Shown in pieces: positions 1 to 6,549 of a DNA stretch of 64,000 nt; position 1 is the stretch's first letter, and each line of letters starts with the position of its first letter. Position numbers and translations under genes: made by a program. The notes beneath the pieces were generated by a model, which was given only the letters and a program-made list of their open reading frames with translations, was not told where the DNA came from and ran no database searches. The DNA is from a virus (lineage: Duplodnaviria > Caudoviricetes): the IMG/VR virus record IMGVR_UViG_3300032116_000002; one strand, 5' to 3'.

Positions 1-489
1 CTTTGTTCTACCCATTACTTCTTCGGTATCAAAATCAAAATAACATTGTGTTTTACTAATAATATCTTTGTTTACCCAATCCACATCTAACAATTTGTGA
101 AACTGGGGAACCAAACTAAAACATTCATTTTTAGTAATAAACCTTGTGTAAAGTTCATTGCTAAAATTGATCACCATAATGTCTGTAGAAACTACATTTT
201 CTTTTAGAAATTTATAGTAAGGAAATTTTGTTAATTCAACATAAGCCTGATCATACAAAAAACTTTCATGAGGATGCTCAGGGTATTGCTCTTTCATATA
301 GGTAAACATACGCTCAGCCATACTACTAGGCTGAGCGTACAGTGACATTAAACTTGTACCATGTGGAGGATACTTGTTTATTAAAACATTCCCACCTGCT
401 AGGTCATATCTTCTAATTACACTTGGACTATGTAATGAATCCCATAAATCACATGCACCAAAGTGAAAAATTCTAGGTCTTAAAATCAT
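1..489 (-). CDS. Hypothetical protein, 3'-truncated by window edge (MILRPRIFHFGACDLWDS...)
   Basis: Manual translation: ATG at 489 overlaps the HNH stop (ATGA at 486-489); frame stays open for 163 codons to position 1. Not in the ORF track. Confidence 0.8.
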   Translation of the reverse strand, partial: MILRPRIFHFGACDLWDSLHSPSVIRRYDLAGGNVLINKYPPHGTSLMSLYAQPSSMAERMFTYMKEQYPEHPHESFLYDQAYVELTKFPYYKFLKENVVSTDIMVINFSNELYTRFITKNECFSLVPQFHKLLDVDWVNKDIISKTQCYFDFDTEEVMGRTK

Positions 490-1043
490 GTAAGAATTCT
501 ACTATGTTTCGGAACCCCGCTTAATAAGTATTCCATTTGATCCGCAAGAATGTTTCTATTTTGCAAAATCATACTTTCAAAGTGATTAGGTTCATAAGGC
601 ACATAAAGTAGTTCCATTCTTGCTTCTTTAAGTGTCTTATTATCTTTTTTGTTATTACACGAAACACATGCAGTAACAACATTCATCCATGTATTTACTC
701 CACCTCTACTTTTGGGTAGGATGTGATCTCGGCTTAAATGATTACTGTTAGAGAAATGCCCTCCGCAGTATGCACATACATGACGGTCACGTCCAAACAA
801 TGTTTTGTTTGTCAATGCAACTTTGCCGTGTTTAGCCGGATCGAACCCATGTCCTTTGATTGCAATGATACTAGGAGTTTCAATGTAACTCAAACGTCCG
901 TCATTCTGAATTCCACCATGAAACTTTGCAACAACTTCACCTAGCGACCATGCAACCATATCTTTTGCAAAATATGTGATTGCATTTTCGTGCGAAATCC
1001 ATTGTCTAGGGATTCCGCCGATGTCCAACGCTAGTACCGACAT
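486..1043 (-). CDS. HNH endonuclease (McrA/COG1403-like) with PLMP/RRXRR-like N-terminus; IshB-like architecture
   Basis: CAYCG, SRDHILPKSRGG and WMNVVTACVSCNNKK form a Zn-finger HNH. The N-terminus VLALDIGGIP has the same spacing as the VFVLDxxGxPLMP motif. SD AAGGAG at 1050-1055. Confidence 0.9.
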   Translation of the reverse strand: MSVLALDIGGIPRQWISHENAITYFAKDMVAWSLGEVVAKFHGGIQNDGRLSYIETPSIIAIKGHGFDPAKHGKVALTNKTLFGRDRHVCAYCGGHFSNSNHLSRDHILPKSRGGVNTWMNVVTACVSCNNKKDNKTLKEARMELLYVPYEPNHFESMILQNRNILADQMEYLLSGVPKHSRILT

Positions 1044-1067
1044 GATTTTCTCCTTAAAAGTTAAATG

Positions 1068-1073
1068 TATTTA
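1068..1073 (-). promoter_or_regulatory. T4-like late promoter motif TAAATA upstream of the HNH gene
   Basis: CTAAATACATT lies 25 nt upstream of the ATG; the same motif recurs at many operon heads. Confidence 0.5.
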
Positions 1074-1136
1074 GACACTTTCAAATATAGTACTCATCCT
1101 CTTACATTCGGAGTGTAATGATGTTTCCTCTATGTC

Positions 1137-1322
1137 AAAAAGTGTATGGTAAAGCAAACTGATCCTATGTCATCGGTCATAGGGTTACACATGTTCATCA
1201 ATTTGCTTTATCATTCCCGTTTTACTCTGCTGTTACCGCCAGCACTTTCATCAGGGGCTCCGCCCGTTCGCAGCATGTTTACAGTGCGCTGCTGAGACCT
1301 CGTTTCTCTCACACCTAAACGT
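1137..1322 (-). ncRNA. Candidate structured non-coding RNA (~185 nt), family unknown
   Basis: ORF-free, GC-enriched stretch directly behind a sigma70 promoter. Hairpins: 1293-1297/1307-1311, 1270-1274/1288-1292, 1255-1258/1262-1265, 1228-1232/1240-1244, and a 14-bp stem 1150-1163/1197-1210 with inner 1164-1169/1178-1183. The mismatches become G-U pairs only on the minus strand. Confidence 0.6.
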
Positions 1323-1323
1323 G

Positions 1324-1473
1324 TTAAGATTCTAACACGGTATTGTCTTTATTGTCAACCTTTTCGCTAAAACCATAGAATTCTCTAATCCTTTCAAACT
1401 TTTCAGTTATCAATTTGTTAAGTTGTTCTTCTGATAATATATGGTTGTCAATATTATCTTTTTGATAATTCAT
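1324..1473 (-). CDS. Small 49-aa protein MNYQKDNIDNHILSEEQLNKLITEKFERIREFYGFSEKVDNKDNTVLES
   Basis: Manual translation; GGAG SD followed by an A-run before the ATG at 1473; TAA at 1324-1326. The 3' end overlaps a sigma70 promoter. Confidence 0.6.
   Translation of the reverse strand: MNYQKDNIDNHILSEEQLNKLITEKFERIREFYGFSEKVDNKDNTVLES
1329..1358 (-). promoter_or_regulatory. sigma70-type promoter TTGACA-18-TAGAAT
   Basis: -35 at 1353-1358, -10 at 1329-1334. A 7-bp inverted repeat (1320-1326/1333-1339) overlaps the -10. Confidence 0.7.
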
Positions 1474-1490
1474 TTTTTTCTCCATATAAC

Positions 1491-1524
1491 AAAAAACCCT
1501 GGGACTTTTTCAGTACCAGGGTTT
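1491..1524 (-). terminator. Intrinsic terminator (attenuator-type)
   Basis: AAACCCTGG-TACTGAAAAAGTC-CCAGGGTTT followed by TTTGTT on the minus strand. Confidence 0.85.
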
Positions 1525-1545
1525 AGATAATCTTACTATGAAACT

Positions 1546-1674
1546 TTACTTACCTAAACCCCCCAAGCCCTCAATAATATTGCGATCACTTGTTAAGGCA
1601 TAAAACCCTACAGGTGACCAAACCATTAGTGTTGGCTGATTAAAGGATATATGTTTACAAGTTAAGTTTCTCAT
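1546..1674 (-). CDS. Putative leader peptide, 42 aa (MRNLTCKHISFNQPTLMVWSPVGFYALTSDRNIIEGLGGLGK)
   Basis: ATG at 1674 lies 8 nt after TAAATA (1683-1688). The last codons (1552-1561) are complementary to the 5' arm of the downstream terminator (1519-1528). Confidence 0.6.
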   Translation of the reverse strand: MRNLTCKHISFNQPTLMVWSPVGFYALTSDRNIIEGLGGLGK

Positions 1675-1746
1675 AGTAAATCTATTTAGTCCTGATGATA
1701 ATATTGTACTATTTATCGCATTAAAATGCAAGTTTTCATTTGCCCA

Positions 1747-1935
1747 TTAATTCTTTTTAAAACTAGAACACATCATCTCAAAATCCTGTTGTCTGGACTG
1801 GATTTGACTATATGACGCTTTTGGGTTTCGTTCTCTGTACGAAGTTTTTTCTTTTTCAATACATTCGTTGTATGGATCGGAGCATCCCGCCAATGACATT
1901 AAAATTAACAATCCAATTAATATTGCTTGTAACAT
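1747..1935 (-). CDS. Small lipoprotein
   Basis: Hydrophobic N-terminus with lipobox LAGC; SD upstream. Confidence 0.7.
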   Translation of the reverse strand: MLQAILIGLLILMSLAGCSDPYNECIEKEKTSYRERNPKASYSQIQSRQQDFEMMCSSFKKN

Positions 1936-1943
1936 AATTTCTC

Positions 1944-2198
1944 CTACTCAATTACCCATGGCCTAAAAGTTGTGTCTATTTTAATAGGCTTTTTGGGCTT
2001 CTCATGATTATTTATGACAACAACTTCGGGAATTTCATTGTTATAAAGTACAGAAAAACCAGTAAACTGATTGTCCTTAATGTTTGCTGTTATTTTCTGT
2101 ACAGTTTTGCCAGTTTTATCTTCTACGTATTGTTTTAATATACCTTCAACTAGTTCCTTTGTGAGGGTGGAAGTACTCTCAATGACTATATCATCCAT
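1944..2198 (-). CDS. Hypothetical protein, 84 aa
   Basis: ORF with GGAG SD, co-oriented with its neighbours. Confidence 0.7.
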   Translation of the reverse strand: MDDIVIESTSTLTKELVEGILKQYVEDKTGKTVQKITANIKDNQFTGFSVLYNNEIPEVVVINNHEKPKKPIKIDTTFRPWVIE

Positions 2199-2222
2199 AT
2201 ATTTCTCCGTTATTAAGTGTAC

Positions 2223-2408
2223 TTATTCGCTAGAAATTTTGCCCCAATTAAATTTCAACCACAGTCTTTCATGTATGTAATGTGCTATGGTCATAAAGAT
2301 GTTTATAACTATTGCTCCACTTAGTCCTGTCCATATTGCAGTAACCAATGTAGCTACGATTCTCCAAGTTATTGCTCTAATGATTGTTCTTTTGTGTGTT
2401 TCTGTCAT
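2223..2408 (-). CDS. Small membrane protein, DUF2061-like
   Basis: RTIIRAITWRIVATL...HYIHERLW pattern typical of DUF2061. Confidence 0.7.
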   Translation of the reverse strand: MTETHKRTIIRAITWRIVATLVTAIWTGLSGAIVINIFMTIAHYIHERLWLKFNWGKISSE

Positions 2409-2417
2409 TGTATCTCC

Positions 2418-2441
2418 AAAATAAAAGCCCCTTTCGGGGCT
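2418..2441 (-). terminator. Intrinsic terminator after ahpD
   Basis: AGCCCC-GAAA-GGGGCT followed by TTTATTTT on the minus strand. Confidence 0.85.
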
Positions 2442-2444
2442 ATG

Positions 2445-2963
2445 TTAATTACTCAATAACCTTGCTACAGAGGTCATAACCGCTGCTATTCGCCCTATAT
2501 CTCGTAATTGTTCTACTGTATATCCTTCTTTTTTAAGTGTTTCATAATGTGCCTTAACACAAAAATGACACTTACCTACTATACTTGCTGCAAGACTATA
2601 TGCCTCAAATCTTGCTTTGGTTGTACCACCATGCGTTGCAATCGCATTCATACGCAACTGTGCTGGCAAACCTTTTAATTGTTCATCATCTGCCATTTCA
2701 ACATATGGATACCATACATTGTTTTGTGCCATAATACTAGCTGCTGTTAGTGCTGCATCAGCCTCTTTACGATCACTTAATTGGCTGTGAACCCATGTCC
2801 AAAATTTTGAATTGCCAGTTGCAAATGCTGCTGCAAGTGCCACTGCCTCTGCTTCTTCAACTGGTAACGTACTACGTTTAATTACTGCATCTATGTTTAG
2901 TTTTGTATCCTTAGCGTATTCAGGAATACTTTGTTCTTTTAATGCGTCTACCCATGCTGTCAT
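2445..2963 (-). CDS. ahpD: Alkylhydroperoxidase AhpD
   Basis: YAKDTKLN, AQNNVWYPY, LRMN and EAYSLAASIVGKCHFCVKAH (CxxC..H) motifs. Confidence 0.92.
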   Translation of the reverse strand: MTAWVDALKEQSIPEYAKDTKLNIDAVIKRSTLPVEEAEAVALAAAFATGNSKFWTWVHSQLSDRKEADAALTAASIMAQNNVWYPYVEMADDEQLKGLPAQLRMNAIATHGGTTKARFEAYSLAASIVGKCHFCVKAHYETLKKEGYTVEQLRDIGRIAAVMTSVARLLSN

Positions 2964-3355
2964 TTTGTTAAAACTCCTAGTTGTCTATATCCTTTATATG
3001 TAGGATGGACCTTATCGGGAGATAGTTCAGGAATAATAATAAAAGTATCACCAAAATGTCTAGCAATTTTTTTAACCAACTCTTGTTTCTCTGGTTTAAT
3101 TGCAGGTACTATCCAAAATACTTGATCTGAATTAACATGAGTTCTTAATGCGACCAATTCTATTTCAGTGTTTAAGTTTTTAAAATCATTACTCCCTAAA
3201 CTAATAATTGTAGTTTTGGCAGGCTTGATTTTTTTAACATATGCATCATTCCAGTCTTTGCTATTGATACCACTCTGAGCATAAGCCACGCACTCAGTAC
3301 GTACTTGGCTTATACCCTTTGCTATGCTATCTCCTAAGATAAGGCACTCTATCAT
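2960..3355 (-). CDS. Minimal SGNH/GDSL-like hydrolase
   Basis: ILGDSI (block I), SLGSND (block III), DKVHP (block V). Confidence 0.75.
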   Translation of the reverse strand: MIECLILGDSIAKGISQVRTECVAYAQSGINSKDWNDAYVKKIKPAKTTIISLGSNDFKNLNTEIELVALRTHVNSDQVFWIVPAIKPEKQELVKKIARHFGDTFIIIPELSPDKVHPTYKGYRQLGVLTK

Positions 3356-3888
3356 TATAGTGTCTCGCCACCAACTGAACGGTTACATGCACATAATTCA
3401 CCTGTTTGTAGTGCATCTAGTACACGCAATGTTTCTTCTGGGCTACGACCAACATTTAGGTTATTAACAGTAACGTGTTGGATTACATTGTCTGGATCAA
3501 CAATAAATGTTGCACGGAGTGCTGCACCTGCAGGGGCGTAGAAAATGCCAAGCTGATTGATTAAGCTTAGTTCACCGCGCTGTGTATCTGCAAATTGTAC
3601 ATGTGTAATTTTTGCTAGATCAGGGTGTGCTTTCTGCCATGCTAATTTGCAGAATTCATTGTCTGTTGAACCAGTCAATAATACTGCATCACGGTCTTTG
3701 AAATCATTTGCCAACTTATCGTATGCTACGATTTCTGTTGGGCAAACAAATGTGAAATCTTTTGGGTAGTAAACGATAACTTTCCATTTACCTTCAAAAC
3801 TTGTGTCGGTAATGTCAAAAAACTGATCACTACCTGGGTTGACGCCGGTTACGGCAAATTTTTCAATGGTATCACCAACTGTTTTCAT
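3355..3888 (-). CDS. ahpC: 2-Cys peroxiredoxin AhpC
   Basis: YPKDFTFVCPTEI peroxidatic motif, ALRATFIVDP, GELCACN resolving Cys. Confidence 0.95.
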   Translation of the reverse strand: MKTVGDTIEKFAVTGVNPGSDQFFDITDTSFEGKWKVIVYYPKDFTFVCPTEIVAYDKLANDFKDRDAVLLTGSTDNEFCKLAWQKAHPDLAKITHVQFADTQRGELSLINQLGIFYAPAGAALRATFIVDPDNVIQHVTVNNLNVGRSPEETLRVLDALQTGELCACNRSVGGETL

Positions 3889-3995: not shown

Positions 3996-5576
3996 ATGAG
4001 TGGATTAGCGTTTAACCCAAATGCATATGATATCGTGTTTTTAAGCTACGATGAACCAAACGCCGACGAAAACTATCAGCATTTACTCTCAATAAAACCC
4101 AAAGCAAAACGTGTGCATTGTGTCAAGGGTAGTGACGCAGCGCATAAAGCCTGTGCGGAGTTAGCTACTACAGATAGAGTTGTAATTGTAGACGGTGATA
4201 ACAAAGTTCTACCATCATTATTCAAACGTAATGTTTGGATAAAGCAAGGATATTTTGACTGGGATGATAAAGTTTTTAGCTATAGTAGTCTAAACTCAAT
4301 CAATGGCACAAGTTATGGAAACGGTGGCGTTAAGTGTTGGCCCGTGGAAAAAATTTTGGCTATGCGAACTCACGAAATCAGTGAGGATGAAAATGTAAGT
4401 GTAGATTTTGATTTTGATAGTTATCTACAATTGAACACTATCGGCAGTCATACTGTCGTTAATAGTAATCCATTACAAGCATGGCGTGCAGGATTCCGTG
4501 ATGCAGTGAAGTTATTCATGAGTGGCAATGGTACGTTTGATGACGTAGATTGGCGCAATATGGATAGATTGTATAGTTGGATGCATATAGGTGCTGATGT
4601 TGAGAATGGATTATGGGCATGTTATGGTGCAAGATTAGGATGCTATTTGATACAGCGTGGTTATGACCATCATGAATTGTGCGATTTTGATAGATTAAAT
4701 GATACATTTAAAATGTATTACGCAGCATCACACAATAACTTAGAAAAGGCATGCAATAATTTATCTATATTGCTTAATCATAGATATGTAGGTAAGGTGT
4801 TCAGTCCTGAACAAAGTATTGAATACAAAGAAAATATTAAACCACCTGTTCGTAGTCCTGAACATTTTGTAGCAGGGAATAAAGATCCTGAGTATGACAT
4901 AGTTTTTATAAGTTATGATGAATCAAATGCTGATGAGAATTATGAAAAATTATTATGTAGGTTTCCTAGAGCAAAAAGAGTACATGGAGTAAAAGGTATA
5001 CACAATGCACACAAAGAGGCTGCATTGTTATGTTCTACTGATTACTTTTGGGTAGTAGATGCAGACGCAGAGATAGTAGATAGTTTTAATTTTGATTATG
5101 TTGTACCTTTCTTTGACTTAGCAAGAGTTAGAGTATGGCGTTGTAAGAATCCTATCAATGATCTTGTATATGGATACGGTGGTGTTAAGTTGTTACCTAG
5201 ATGTTTAGTAAATAAAATGGATGTTAACACTACTGATATGACAAGTAGCATAAGCAAACATTATGAACCAGTGCAAGAGTTAAGCAACATCACAAAATTT
5301 AACACTGATCCATTTACTACATGGCGCAGTGCATTTAGAGAATGTGTTAAGTTAAGTAGTCAAACTATTCAAGGGCAGGTATCACAAGAAACATTAGAAA
5401 GATTAGACATTTGGTGCAGTGTAGGTATAGATAAAGAATATGGCAAGTATGCTATTCAAGGTGCCAAACAAGGTAGAGAATACGGTTTAGAAAACAAAAA
5501 TAATAATGAAGCATTAAGAAAGATTAATGATTATAGTTGGTTAAAAGAATTATATGAAAGAACAGTTAGCGTTTAG
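3996..5576 (+). CDS. Tandem two-domain GT-A-like glycosyltransferase/nucleotidyl-sugar-binding protein
   Basis: Two homologous halves, each with YDIVF(L/I)SYDE..ADENY, RVH.VKG, a DxD motif (VDGD / VDAD), YG.GGVK and AW..FR..VKL. Confidence 0.65.
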   Translation: MSGLAFNPNAYDIVFLSYDEPNADENYQHLLSIKPKAKRVHCVKGSDAAHKACAELATTDRVVIVDGDNKVLPSLFKRNVWIKQGYFDWDDKVFSYSSLNSINGTSYGNGGVKCWPVEKILAMRTHEISEDENVSVDFDFDSYLQLNTIGSHTVVNSNPLQAWRAGFRDAVKLFMSGNGTFDDVDWRNMDRLYSWMHIGADVENGLWACYGARLGCYLIQRGYDHHELCDFDRLNDTFKMYYAASHNNLEKACNNLSILLNHRYVGKVFSPEQSIEYKENIKPPVRSPEHFVAGNKDPEYDIVFISYDESNADENYEKLLCRFPRAKRVHGVKGIHNAHKEAALLCSTDYFWVVDADAEIVDSFNFDYVVPFFDLARVRVWRCKNPINDLVYGYGGVKLLPRCLVNKMDVNTTDMTSSISKHYEPVQELSNITKFNTDPFTTWRSAFRECVKLSSQTIQGQVSQETLERLDIWCSVGIDKEYGKYAIQGAKQGREYGLENKNNNEALRKINDYSWLKELYERTVSV

Positions 5577-6549
5577 CGATATACCTTTCAATGACATTGT
5601 TAGATTTGGTCAGGCAACTATGCTTGATGACACACTGTTTTCTATAAGTTGGATATTAGGAAGATTTTGTAACTATAAATGCAGTTATTGTTGGCCATAC
5701 GCAAGAAATGATACACCAGATCATCAAGAACTAGAAACATATTTAAAAACAATAGATGAAATAAAAAGACAAGCCAGACAAAATGGCTTCAATAAATTTC
5801 ATTGGTCATTCAGTGGCGGCGAACCAACAGCGTATAAACATTTACTTGAATTAGTAAAGCATGTTGATGATGGACCTGGTACTCCATATCAAAGCATCCA
5901 CATGACTACTAACTTAAGTCCTAGTAGGCGTTGGTGGAAAAATTATGCTGAGATAACTAGCATGTTACAAAGGCGTAGTATCACTGCAAGCTTTCATGAT
6001 GAGTTCGCAAAAGAAATTGAGTTTGGTGATAAGATATTACAATTAACCGAAGATGATGTATTCGTAACTATTAATCAAGTTATGGTTCCGTCAAAGTTTT
6101 ATGAGTTATACGAAAGATTGTGTCGTTTTGCAGCACGTGGAATTAATGTCACACTCAAGCCACAAAGCGATCCTACAGCTAGTTTTGTAGTTGACGGATA
6201 CAGTGAAGATATGATAAAATTAATGCGTGATGGCTTCCCTCAACATGCAAAAAATCAAGAAGTAATGCAAGTAAAACTTATTGATAAAGATAATAAAGTT
6301 TGGTATATGGATCAAGCAGAAAGATTTAATGCGTTTGGTTTCAACAAATTTAAAGATTGGATGTGTAATTCAGGGTATCAAGGTTTAGTTATTAGAGAGA
6401 ATGAAGTAAAACGAAGCTATAGTTGTAGAGATGAAATATTAGGGACATTAGACGGTGGATTTAAATTATTTGATAGTCCTAAAATATGTATCACAGACAG
6501 TTGTGTGAGTTCCGCAGATAGTAAATTACCAAAATGCAAATCGATTTAG
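5554..6549 (+). CDS. Radical SAM enzyme with Cys-rich C-terminal (twitch-like) domain
   Basis: CNYKCSYC, FSGGEPT; C-terminal CNSG...SC...C..DSC. Confidence 0.9.
   Translation: MKEQLAFSDIPFNDIVRFGQATMLDDTLFSISWILGRFCNYKCSYCWPYARNDTPDHQELETYLKTIDEIKRQARQNGFNKFHWSFSGGEPTAYKHLLELVKHVDDGPGTPYQSIHMTTNLSPSRRWWKNYAEITSMLQRRSITASFHDEFAKEIEFGDKILQLTEDDVFVTINQVMVPSKFYELYERLCRFAARGINVTLKPQSDPTASFVVDGYSEDMIKLMRDGFPQHAKNQEVMQVKLIDKDNKVWYMDQAERFNAFGFNKFKDWMCNSGYQGLVIRENEVKRSYSCRDEILGTLDGGFKLFDSPKICITDSCVSSADSKLPKCKSI

What the first reader, a model, noticed from the sequence alone, without database searches (positions are those of the whole stretch)
486..1358. IshB-like PLMP-HNH nuclease with an upstream structured ncRNA: candidate RNA-associated nuclease system in a phage
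Seen: a 185-aa HNH whose N-terminus (VLALDIGGIP..ISHENAI) has the spacing of the PLMP/RRXRR motif, lying directly 3' of a promoter-driven multi-hairpin RNA. Established: IscB/IsrB carry a PLMP domain and an upstream omegaRNA; ~180-aa PLMP+HNH proteins without RuvC were named IshB, and I know of no characterised function or guide for them. Inference: this may be an IshB with its own RNA partner, domesticated by a phage (no IS ends or TnpA seen). Caveats: COG1403 HNH genes are very common, and the gene has its own TAAATA motif, so the RNA could be an unrelated neighbour.
Basis: partly seen in the sequence, partly recalled or inferred. Interest (0 to 1): 0.75.

Follow-up and report, generated by a model that had tools for sequence, protein, structure and literature searches.

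The report
Phage HNH nuclease beside unrelated tRNA-array RNA
A small phage nuclease really does have the two-domain build of the "IshB" relatives of Cas9, but the structured RNA next to it is not its guide: that RNA belongs to a new, widespread family that sits at the head of transfer-RNA gene clusters in large uncultivated phages.

Summary
Both observations are real. The 185-aa protein (486-1043, minus strand) has an intact HNH nuclease domain. In an unbiased fold search its N-terminal 70 residues best match the PLMP domains of IscB/IsrB (top 5 of 48,161 chains, Z 4.3-5.4; next 2.7). The upstream ~184-nt RNA (1136-1319) is a true structured RNA: in 40 distinct homologues 92% of cells pair, against 32-43% in slid controls, and 35 of 40 pairs show compensatory changes.

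In sister phages 7-13 tRNA genes lie between the RNA and the HNH gene. In at least 32 loci the RNA is followed directly by tRNAs. Complete phage genomes with HNH homologues give no match to the RNA model. The RNA's 5' end is conserved and base-paired, so it is not guide-like. No Rfam family matches, HEARO/omega RNA included. The HNH gene keeps its own TAAATA motif whatever lies upstream.

Best reading: two independent neighbours. One is a stand-alone PLMP-HNH endonuclease living inside a jumbo-phage tRNA array. The array itself starts just outside the window. The other is a new tRNA-array leader RNA family, usually preceded by a ~53-aa ORF. Neither function has been tested.

The parts
486..1043 (-). 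Gene for the 185-aa PLMP-like + HNH nuclease (phrog_16726 'HNH endonuclease')
   Evidence: ORF list; Pfam; PHROG match over residues 4-161, E 5e-24; AF2 pLDDT 96.5; 2,951 homologue clusters.
846..1043 (-). N-terminal domain (residues 1-66): beta-beta-alpha-beta hairpin with a PLMP / IF3-N-like fold and a conserved G10-x-P12-x-x-W15
   Evidence: Models. VIA-align wide search: the top 5 hits are the N-terminal PLMP domains of IscB/IsrB, Z 4.3-5.4; IF3-N scores Z 2.3-2.6 lower in the same list. PMC9581776 describes PLMP as IF3-N-like.
609..791 (-). HNH beta-beta-alpha-metal core (residues 85-145) with two CxxC pairs, the D106-H107 catalytic dyad, N121 and N130
   Evidence: Pfam; invariant columns; profile hits to Gme HNH 4h9d (1.8e-18), TbaIscB (1.5e-15) and type II-D Cas9.
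1050..1055 (-). Shine-Dalgarno AAGGAG, 6 nt before the ATG
   Evidence: Read from the sequence; conserved in the alignment.
1068..1075 (-). TCTAAATA, a late-promoter-like TAAATA motif belonging to the HNH gene
   Evidence: TAAATA is kept ~25 nt before the ATG in all aligned loci, whether the upstream neighbour is the RNA, a tRNA or a coding gene. TAAATA lies at -50..-10 of 9 of 60 ORFs, against 1.9% of random 40-mers. The full octamer is not enriched.
1101..1120 (-). Covarying hairpin (5-bp stem, 7-nt loop; looks like an anticodon arm) between the RNA and the HNH promoter
   Evidence: Stem pairs change in a compensatory way in L002, L008, L009, L010, L011 and L014; the hairpin is deleted in L001. 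A tRNA-remnant origin is not supported.
1136..1319 (-). Structured RNA, a member of a new family that heads phage tRNA arrays. P1 closes the fold (AGUGU/ACACU). P2 has loop AACGAGG. P3 has loop CACUNNAAAC. A junction reads ACGGGCGG. P4 carries a GAUGAAA/AGUAAAA internal loop. P4b has loop GCGGUAA. P5 is long and variable.
   Evidence: CM R1 scores 193 bits here. No Rfam match.
1329..1358 (-). Sigma-70-type promoter TTGACA-18-TAGAAT with an extended -10 TG. It lies inside the 3' end of the small ORF and overlaps a hairpin/palindrome at 1320-1339.
   Evidence: Promoter scan: 11 of 12 matches. It is conserved only in the window clade; more distant members (L012, L044, L045) lack it.
1324..1485 (-). 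53-aa ORF that precedes the RNA in many loci and is the RNA's most constant protein-coding neighbour
   Evidence: tblastn finds homologues 6-73 nt upstream of the RNA in the window clade, L076, L051/L099/L110, L073/L085, L083, L053/L061/L097 and L067. Translations were read in L012, L044 and L045. No Pfam or PHROG match.
1491..1522 (-). Terminator-like hairpin (CCCTGG...CCAGGG) plus a T-run, directly before the small ORF
   Evidence: Read from the sequence. The same element is present in L038, L044, L045, L012 and L039.
1..489 (-). 5' part of a 301-aa ORF whose ATG overlaps the HNH stop codon (ATGA). In the full contig the tRNA array follows it.
   Evidence: ORF list. A contig with the identical HNH (L125) shows the 301-aa ORF and then tRNA-Arg(tct), Ala, Glu, Ile, Asp, Lys, Gln, Arg and His.

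Best explanation
Two independent genetic elements happen to be adjacent here. (a) The 185-aa protein is a stand-alone, protein-only HNH endonuclease. Its N-terminal domain has the PLMP/IF3-N fold, giving it the same two-domain plan as IshB. It is a resident of the tRNA-gene array of a clade of freshwater jumbo phages. It is transcribed from its own TAAATA-type promoter and is translationally coupled to a downstream 301-aa ORF. I infer that it cuts or nicks DNA by protein-based recognition, like the free-standing HNH endonucleases that populate tRNA regions of other large phages. The PLMP-like domain would serve as a nucleic-acid-binding module. (b) The ~184-nt RNA is a separate gene. It belongs to a previously uncatalogued family of five- to six-helix RNAs that sits at the head of phage tRNA arrays, usually just after a ~53-aa ORF and just before the first tRNA. 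I infer that it is transcribed with the array and released by tRNA processing. It may then act as an array leader (processive antitermination or processing) or as a stable RNA with a role of its own. What is shown: the domain architecture, the RNA structure, and the independence of the two elements. What is inferred: both functions.
For: Independence. In L012/L013 the order is small ORF, RNA (1702-1821), seven tRNAs, then HNH (3001). In L016 it is RNA (10-186), 13 tRNAs, then HNH. L039 has the RNA inside a tRNA array, and its 84-kb contig holds no HNH. In L044 and L045 other genes follow the RNA. A same-strand tRNA starts 21-250 nt downstream of the RNA in 32 loci. HNH lies within 100 nt only in the window clade and L076. 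Elsewhere it lies 1.2-6 kb further into the array or is not in the locus. L017 and the complete genomes of SCTP-2, Mx1, RsoM2USA and a 315-kb DTR contig carry HNH homologues but give no match to the RNA model.

Own promoter. TAAATA is kept before the HNH ATG in every upstream context and is about 8-fold enriched upstream of ORFs in the window.

Protein. Catalytic and zinc-binding residues are intact. The protein matches phrog_16726 'HNH endonuclease'. Homologues sit in varied contexts in PA5oct, B23, Atu_ph07 and OC and inside tRNA clusters in SCTP-2 and Mx1.

RNA. In 40 distinct sequences 92% of cells pair, against 32-43% in slid controls; 35 of 40 pairs show compensatory changes; 0 of 500 shuffles reach the observed values. 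The window's own genome has the tRNA array just beyond the window edge.
Against: No biochemical data exist for either element. The HNH gene keeps its place relative to the downstream tRNAs (Thr/Asn, then Arg-tct) across phages with 72-95% protein identity. That fits a selected phage function as well as it fits a selfish endonuclease. RNA and HNH do share arrays and strand in at least 12 loci, so a trans relationship is not excluded. The covariance model was built from a narrow clade, so 'no match' in distant complete genomes is weak evidence. The covariation counts come from alignments fitted to the model. Z about 5 for a 50-residue domain is modest.
Confidence: 0.72

Rival explanations
1. One reading: an IshB-type nuclease that uses the RNA immediately upstream as its omega-like guide or scaffold, forming a cis-encoded RNP system domesticated by a phage.
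For: The PLMP-like fold and the IscB-type HNH are real. In IsrB the PLMP domain contacts the terminal hairpins of the omega RNA, next to the Shine-Dalgarno sequence (PMC9581776). The RNA lies 93 nt upstream on the same strand in the window clade.
Against: The adjacency is limited to one shallow clade, with HNH at least 82% identical. Elsewhere tRNAs or other genes intervene, or one partner is missing. The RNA's 5' end is conserved and paired in P1, so there is no variable guide segment. Rfam HEARO/omega RNA does not match at E<=1. The HNH gene has its own promoter motif between the RNA and the ATG. No TnpA or IS ends are present.
Confidence: 0.03
2. A trans partnership: the array-leader RNA and the PLMP-HNH protein work together as parts of one tRNA-array module, even when their genes are kilobases apart.
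For: Both lie in the same array on the same strand in the window clade and in L076, L105, L085, L061, L111, L067 and L119. PLMP domains bind RNA hairpins in IscB/IsrB.
Against: Many arrays with 15-24 tRNAs carry the RNA but show no HNH in the sequence held, for example L086, L082, L075, L055, L071 and L101. The 84-kb contig of L039 has none. Complete genomes with HNH homologues show no RNA match.
Confidence: 0.05
3. The nuclease acts on RNA rather than DNA. It would process the phage tRNA-array transcript or cleave host tRNAs, docking on tRNA-like hairpins through its IF3-N/PLMP-like domain.
For: The gene recurs inside tRNA clusters in distant phages: the window clade, SCTP-2 (45% identity) and Mx1 (32%). 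The N-domain fold is shared with RNA-binding IF3-N and PLMP. IscB HNH can be turned to single-stranded RNA targets (PMC13284715).
Against: More distant homologues are not next to tRNAs. HNH enzymes of this subfamily (4h9d, Cas9, IscB) are DNA nickases or cleavers. tRNA clusters are known landing sites for free-standing endonuclease genes (established knowledge for T4 SegB and the T5 HNH enzymes).
Confidence: 0.1
4. The RNA is a cis-acting 5' leader (riboswitch or attenuator) that controls HNH expression.
For: It lies on the same strand, directly upstream, behind a strong promoter. There is no canonical terminator between the RNA and the gene.
Against: The same RNA precedes tRNAs or unrelated genes in most loci. 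HNH keeps its TAAATA motif and SD without the RNA.
Confidence: 0.02

Closest known systems
IshB (OMEGA family; PLMP + HNH, ~180 aa; Altae-Tran et al. 2021, as summarised in PMC11610941 and PMC10734217)
   Same: Size of 185 aa. An N-terminal domain with the PLMP fold. A C-terminal HNH of the IscB/Cas9 subfamily. No RuvC, bridge helix or TAM-interacting domain.
   Different: The PLMP motif is absent (G-x-P-x-x-W instead) and Pfam RRXRR does not hit. There is no IS200/605 context. No conserved upstream RNA travels with the gene. The gene lives in phage tRNA arrays and has a conserved ~40-residue C-terminal extension.
Free-standing HNH endonucleases in tRNA regions of large phages (T5 tRNA-region HNH nickases; T4 SegB as the GIY-YIG analogue). 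This comparison rests on my own knowledge and was not checked in papers here.
   Same: A small stand-alone nuclease gene between tRNA genes, on the same strand, with its own promoter. Its presence and position vary between related arrays.
   Different: It is more conserved (72-97% identity across many contigs) and more syntenic with the downstream tRNAs than typical homing endonucleases. It carries the PLMP-like domain instead of the usual DNA-binding modules.
GOLLD and ROOL RNAs (phage and prophage structured RNAs, often near tRNA islands; PMC12286853)
   Same: For the RNA: phage-encoded, highly structured, of unknown function, and located at tRNA islands.
   Different: It is 120-250 nt long rather than 500-800+ nt. 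It does not match either Rfam model. It sits specifically at the 5' head of the array, often after a ~53-aa ORF.
HEARO / omega RNA of IscB/IsrB (Rfam RF02033)
   Same: A structured RNA immediately 5' of an HNH-domain gene, in this window only.
   Different: No covariance-model match at E<=1. There is no variable 5' guide. The RNA does not overlap the SD, and it is not linked to the HNH gene across relatives.

Membership tests
IshB (PLMP-HNH OMEGA nuclease) | N-terminal PLMP domain (fold) | tested here: met
   The residue 1-72 model was compared with 48,161 PDB representatives. The top five hits are IscB/IsrB residues ~1-56, Z 4.3-5.4, 49-51 residues aligned, rmsd 2.8-3.9. The next hit scores Z 2.7. 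The Z is modest.
IshB (PLMP-HNH OMEGA nuclease) | PLMP sequence motif / detectable sequence homology to the RRXRR (PF14239) N-terminus | tested here: not met
   The motif here is GGIPRQW and the family consensus is G-x-P-x-x-W. No PF14239 hit at E<=1 for the query, and PF14239 is not among the 25 most frequently hit families for the 71 homologues. The N-domain profile against PDB sequences finds no IscB.
IshB (PLMP-HNH OMEGA nuclease) | HNH nuclease domain of the IscB/Cas9 type with catalytic residues, and no RuvC | tested here: met
   Pfam HNH_5/HNH/HNH_4. Profile hits to TbaIscB (1.5e-15) and type II-D Cas9. C90/C93/H107/N121/N130 invariant, C126/C129 nearly so. The protein is 185 aa with no RuvC region.
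IshB (PLMP-HNH OMEGA nuclease) | Encoded in an IS200/IS605-type element (TnpA, element ends) | tested here: not met
   Neighbours are a small ORF, the RNA, a 301-aa ORF, tRNAs, and AhpC/CMD/radical-SAM genes. No transposase family appears in the gene tables. The position is syntenic within phage tRNA arrays.
IshB (PLMP-HNH OMEGA nuclease) | A cognate omega RNA encoded next to the gene and co-inherited with it | tested here: not met
   The upstream neighbour is the RNA, a tRNA or a coding gene, depending on the phage. The RNA model is absent from four complete HNH-bearing genomes. No HEARO match.
IshB (PLMP-HNH OMEGA nuclease) | RNA-guided target cleavage | not testable with these tools
   This needs RNP purification and a cleavage assay.
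Phage free-standing HNH endonuclease (phrog_16726; Pfam HNH_5) | Match to the family profile over both domains | tested here: met
   phrog_16726 E 5.4e-24 over residues 4-161. HNH_5 scores 56.5 bits against a cut-off of 27.5.
Phage free-standing HNH endonuclease (homing type) | Patchy presence or absence between otherwise collinear genomes, and a cognate cleavage site in HNH-less alleles | tested here: inconclusive
   The position within arrays varies, and many arrays show no HNH in the sequence held. Within the HNH-bearing clade, however, the gene is syntenic and 72-97% conserved. No empty-site allele was identified.
HEARO / omega RNA, GOLLD, ROOL and all other Rfam 15 families (for the RNA) | Covariance-model match | tested here: not met
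   cmscan at E<=1 on window 1-3000 and on six variant loci, and at E<=0.1 on four related loci, found only tRNAs and chance hits far below the gathering scores.
Processive-antitermination leader RNAs (put, EAR, rrn leaders): considered as a working analogy only | Makes RNA polymerase resistant to terminators downstream | not testable with these tools
   Only the position at the head of long, same-strand tRNA arrays is shown.

The most novel reading that the evidence does not exclude
The PLMP-HNH protein is an RNA-associated nuclease after all, but its RNA is not the one proposed. An IshB-like enzyme kept in phage tRNA arrays would dock through its PLMP/IF3-N-like domain on tRNA or leader-RNA hairpins. 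It could use them as cofactors or substrates, for example in tRNA-array maintenance, in processing, or in cleaving host tRNA or DNA at tRNA genes. The small ORF, the new leader RNA and the nuclease would then form one functional tRNA-array module.
Probability: 0.07. Interest if true: 0.8.

Novelty: new member of a known kind. Interest (0 to 1): 0.45.

Why it matters
For the original claim this is mostly a negative result. The window does not hold a phage-borne RNA-guided IshB system, so it is not a shortcut to a tiny programmable nuclease.

Two things remain of value. First, a large phage HNH family (2,951 clusters at 90% identity; at least 143 clusters at 50% identity with E<1e-30) is shown at fold level to carry the PLMP domain, which has otherwise been described only in IscB/IsrB/IshB. 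This bears on where that domain came from and on whether PLMP-HNH proteins need RNA at all.

Second, the neighbouring RNA defines a covariation-supported family that Rfam does not hold. I found 40 distinct sequences, on contigs of up to 355 kb, marking the 5' head of tRNA arrays in uncultivated large phages. Like GOLLD and ROOL, it points to unknown RNA biology tied to phage tRNA islands, and it is small enough (~150-200 nt) for direct structural and biochemical study.

Tried and rejected
- Rfam cmscan at E<=1 on the window region and on variant loci (E<=0.1 on four related loci): no family for the RNA.
- blastn of the region and of two RNA variants against 50,697 cultured-phage records: no match.
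- Genome-contig scan for the RNA core pattern in 185,579 prokaryote species: no match.
- Pfam RRXRR on the protein and on 71 homologues: no hit.
- N-domain profile against PDB sequences: only a marginal Spt5 KOW-region hit (E 0.004) and no IscB.
- Foldseek with the full-length model: dominated by the HNH domain. Foldseek with the N-domain alone: nothing at E<=0.001, though IscB/IsrB had the highest probabilities. VIA-align then resolved this.
- Search for longer, fused relatives: four proteins of 336-387 aa, none with RuvC/RRXRR.
- RRXRR family search in the 221-kb sister contig and in control genomes: nothing matched anywhere, so this was uninformative.
- The idea that the hairpin at 1101-1120 is a remnant of the tRNA-Arg(CCG) gene that precedes HNH in L012/L013: the local alignment score is no better than shuffles (z 0.36), so I rejected it.
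- TCTAAATA octamer enrichment in the window: 4 found against 5.6 expected, so not enriched. Only the TAAATA core upstream of ORFs is enriched.
- RNA-library contigs from freshwater metatranscriptomes laid on 400-1600: a few low-depth pieces over the HNH gene and flanks, none spanning the RNA. DNA carry-over cannot be excluded, so nothing can be concluded about expression or transcript ends.
- Single-sequence folding: z -1.9, not convincing alone.
- RNAalifold on the MAFFT alignment proposed pairing the 5' GUGU with GCGC. I preferred the P1 closing helix with the 3' ACAC, which covaries in the wider set. The 5' AGUG is also complementary to the conserved CACU in the P3 loop, so an alternative pairing or pseudoknot remains open.
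- No whole genome is held for this window.
Full report
**What is at the coordinates**

On the minus strand, window 486-1043 is an ORF of 185 aa. Pfam places HNH_5, HNH and HNH_4 at residues 90-145. Reading upstream on the same strand the features are:
- an AAGGAG ribosome-binding site;
- a TCTAAATA motif at 1068-1075;
- a small hairpin at 1101-1120;
- a GC-rich stretch, 50-52% GC against about 30% around it;
- a near-consensus sigma-70 promoter, TTGACA-18-TAGAAT with a TG, 11 of 12 matches, at 1358-1329.

The promoter lies inside the 3' end of a 53-aa ORF (1324-1485). That ORF follows a terminator-like hairpin.

**The protein**

The family is very large. There are 2,951 clusters at 90% identity, and the best 120 are 74-97% identical to the query. 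Among clusters at 50% identity, 143 score below E 1e-30, and most of the best-scoring ones align over the whole length. An alignment of 71 diverse full-length members keeps the following:
- R85, D86, the first CxxC pair (C90/C93), H107, N121, N130 and K133 invariant, and the second pair (C126/C129) nearly so. This is an intact beta-beta-alpha-metal site with its zinc ligands.
- In the N-terminal part, L4 invariant and G10, P12, W15, G35, G43 and G44 nearly so.

AlphaFold2 gives a very confident model, pLDDT 96.5. Sequence-profile matches in the PDB fall only on the HNH part. The best are the Geobacter HNH nickase 4h9d, TbaIscB, and type II-D and other Cas9 HNH domains.

I folded the N-terminal 72 residues alone (pLDDT 91). 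Foldseek gave nothing significant, though IscB/IsrB chains had the highest probabilities in its list. VIA-align against 48,161 PDB representatives, run without any Foldseek prefilter, gave these results:
- The top five hits are residues ~1-56 of five IscB/IsrB structures, Z 4.3-5.4, with 49-51 residues aligned.
- The next hit scores Z 2.7.
- IF3 N-terminal domains appear a little lower, at Z 2.3-2.6.

This fits the published observation that the PLMP domain resembles IF3-N (PMC9581776). The literal PLMP motif and HMM-level similarity to Pfam RRXRR are absent.

Published summaries define IshB as a ~180-aa protein with PLMP and HNH domains and no RuvC (PMC11610941, PMC10734217). In architecture this protein is IshB-like. 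PHROGs already holds the family as phrog_16726, 'HNH endonuclease'.

**The RNA**

Seventeen closely related viral contigs carry the HNH gene. In thirteen of them the upstream region aligns with the window and shows obvious compensatory changes.

Two pattern scans of IMG/VR and a looser one were followed by a covariance model built on my helix assignment (R1). Together they recovered 40 distinct sequences.

On the model-fitted alignment the counts are as follows (a smaller set gave the same picture):
- 92% of cells form standard pairs, against 32-43% when the partners are slid by 1-3 columns.
- 35 of 40 pairs show changes on both sides.
- No shuffle out of 500 reaches the observed values.

These counts lean towards the model because the alignment was fitted to it. 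Even so, the compensatory changes in P2, P3, P4, P4b and P5 are visible by eye in unaligned sequences.

The fold has these elements:
- P1, a closing helix (5' AGUGU with 3' ACACU);
- P2, with a conserved AACGAGG loop;
- P3, with a CACUNNAAAC loop;
- an invariant ACGGGCGG junction;
- P4, enclosing an internal loop (GAUGAAA/AGUAAAA in the window type) that has the look of an S-turn;
- P4b, capped by GCGGUAA;
- a long and variable P5, replaced by two hairpins in another subtype.

No Rfam 15 family matches any variant. No cultured-phage record or prokaryote genome holds it.

**Are the two linked?**

They are not.
- In L012/L013 the order is terminator, small ORF, RNA, seven tRNAs, HNH. In L016 it is RNA, thirteen tRNAs, HNH.
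- In L039 the RNA sits inside a tRNA array on an 84-kb contig that holds no HNH homologue.
- In L044 and L045 unrelated genes follow the RNA.
- Across all RNA-bearing loci, a script using ARAGORN and tblastn finds a same-strand tRNA 21-250 nt downstream in 32 loci. There is usually no tRNA upstream.
- HNH lies within 100 nt of the RNA only in the window clade and L076. In six other contigs it lies 1.2-6 kb further into the array, and in the rest it is not in the sequence held.
- Conversely, L017 and the complete genomes of Salicola phage SCTP-2, Myxococcus phage Mx1, Ralstonia phage RsoM2USA and a 315-kb terminal-repeat contig carry HNH homologues but give no match to R1. The caveat is that R1 comes from a narrow clade.

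The RNA's 5' end is conserved and paired, so it is not a variable guide. The variable part is the tip of P5.

The HNH gene keeps a TAAATA motif about 25 nt before its ATG whether the upstream neighbour is the RNA, a tRNA or a coding gene. TAAATA is about eight-fold enriched at -50..-10 of ORFs in the window.

The element that most constantly accompanies the RNA is the ~53-aa ORF just upstream.

**Context of the window itself**

The window holds no tRNA gene, but only because it is cut there. A 118-kb contig carrying the identical HNH protein and the same neighbours shows this order: HNH, a 301-aa ORF whose ATG overlaps the HNH stop codon, and then 35 nt later tRNA-Arg(tct), Ala, Glu, Ile, Asp, Lys, Gln, Arg and His.

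The local order is therefore: small ORF, leader RNA, hairpin, HNH, ORF301, tRNA array.

The part downstream of HNH (Thr/Asn, then Arg-tct and onwards) is syntenic among HNH-bearing relatives. HNH homologues at 45% and 32% identity also lie between tRNA genes, in SCTP-2 (where those tRNAs are unannotated) and in Mx1. More distant homologues do not.

**Mechanism**

For the protein, the best-supported reading is a protein-only HNH endonuclease that resides in tRNA arrays. This parallels the free-standing endonucleases of T4 and T5 tRNA regions, a comparison that rests on my own knowledge. The PLMP/IF3-N-like domain would act as a nucleic-acid-binding module. A role on tRNA or other RNA is a minority possibility.

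For the RNA, what is shown is its position at the 5' head of long same-strand tRNA arrays and the lack of a canonical terminator after it. This suggests it is co-transcribed with the tRNAs and freed by tRNA-processing enzymes. Whether it then acts as an antitermination or processing leader, or as a stable RNA with its own role (compare GOLLD and ROOL near tRNA islands; PMC12286853), is inference only.

RNA-library contigs were too sparse to say anything about expression.

**Verdict**

The architecture is IshB-like, but there is no RNA partner, no IS element and no guide.
- The protein is a new member of a known kind.
- The RNA is an uncatalogued family, and it is the more interesting object here. 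The scan had already noted the same stretch separately as an unannotated structured RNA.

Noticed in passing
window 1324-1485 (-); also L012:1536-1694, L044:4999-5166, L045 ~1012-1171 (-): A ~53-aa ORF with a conserved helical motif (..LS.EQL..LI..KFER.R..) directly precedes the leader RNA in many loci and follows a terminator-like hairpin. It has no Pfam or PHROG match. It is the RNA's most constant protein-coding neighbour and may be functionally tied to it.
   Followed up: partly
window 1320-1339 (both strands): A palindrome/hairpin (CGTGTTA..TAACACG) overlaps the -10 element and the likely start of the RNA. Substitutions in relatives keep pairing through G-U on the minus-strand RNA (L002, L011). 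An equivalent hairpin exists in L045, where there is no promoter. It could be an RNA processing site or an operator.
   Followed up: no
window 1101-1120 (-): A covarying 5-bp stem with a 7-nt loop (consensus CUYYGAC) lies between the leader RNA and the HNH promoter motif. It is deleted in L001. It looks like an anticodon arm, but its similarity to array tRNAs is not significant.
   Followed up: partly
window 486-489 (-) and L125:6555-7460: The HNH stop codon overlaps the start of a 301-aa ORF (ATGA), which suggests translational coupling. That ORF has only a faint DUF6270 hit and is absent from L001-type relatives, where tRNA-Arg follows HNH directly.
   Followed up: partly
L125:7495-12337 (just outside the window's left edge): The window's own phage carries an array of at least 9 tRNA genes interspersed with small ORFs, starting ~1 kb beyond window position 1. 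The window itself has no tRNA gene.
   Followed up: yes
window 2445-3888 (-), 3996-6549 (+): The phage carries redox-type auxiliary genes: AhpD-like CMD (172 aa), a 131-aa ORF, peroxiredoxin AhpC/Redoxin (177 aa), a 526-aa protein made of two similar halves, and a radical-SAM protein (331 aa).
   Followed up: no
window-wide (for example upstream of ORFs starting at 3996, 17202, 56592 and 61395): A TAAATA core (often NTAAATAC) lies at -50..-10 of 9 of 60 crude ORFs, against 1.9% of random 40-mers. It is a candidate phage late-type promoter motif.
   Followed up: partly
L047 (Salicola phage SCTP-2, MF360958.1 304413-310925): ARAGORN finds six tRNA genes around the HNH homologue that do not appear among the features listed for that stretch of the GenBank record.
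   Followed up: no
L016:2846-2939, L039:8640-8730: tRNA-Ile(tat) calls of 91-94 nt, unusually long for tRNA-Ile. Possible explanations are an intron, a long extra arm or a mis-call.
   Followed up: no
L050 (G004:C1:2304-2465), the same contig as L017: A second, unrelated HNH-domain ORF (164 aa open frame; 35% identity over the HNH core) lies ~1.6 kb from the PLMP-HNH gene. The arrays seem to collect nuclease genes. L045 has a C2H2-type zinc-finger ORF after the RNA.
   Followed up: no
RNA family: 5' AGUG (window ~1311-1314) and the P3 loop CACU (~1282-1285): The conserved 5' AGUG can pair either with the 3' terminal ACACU (P1) or with the invariant CACU in the P3 loop. This is a possible pseudoknot or conformational switch.
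   Followed up: no
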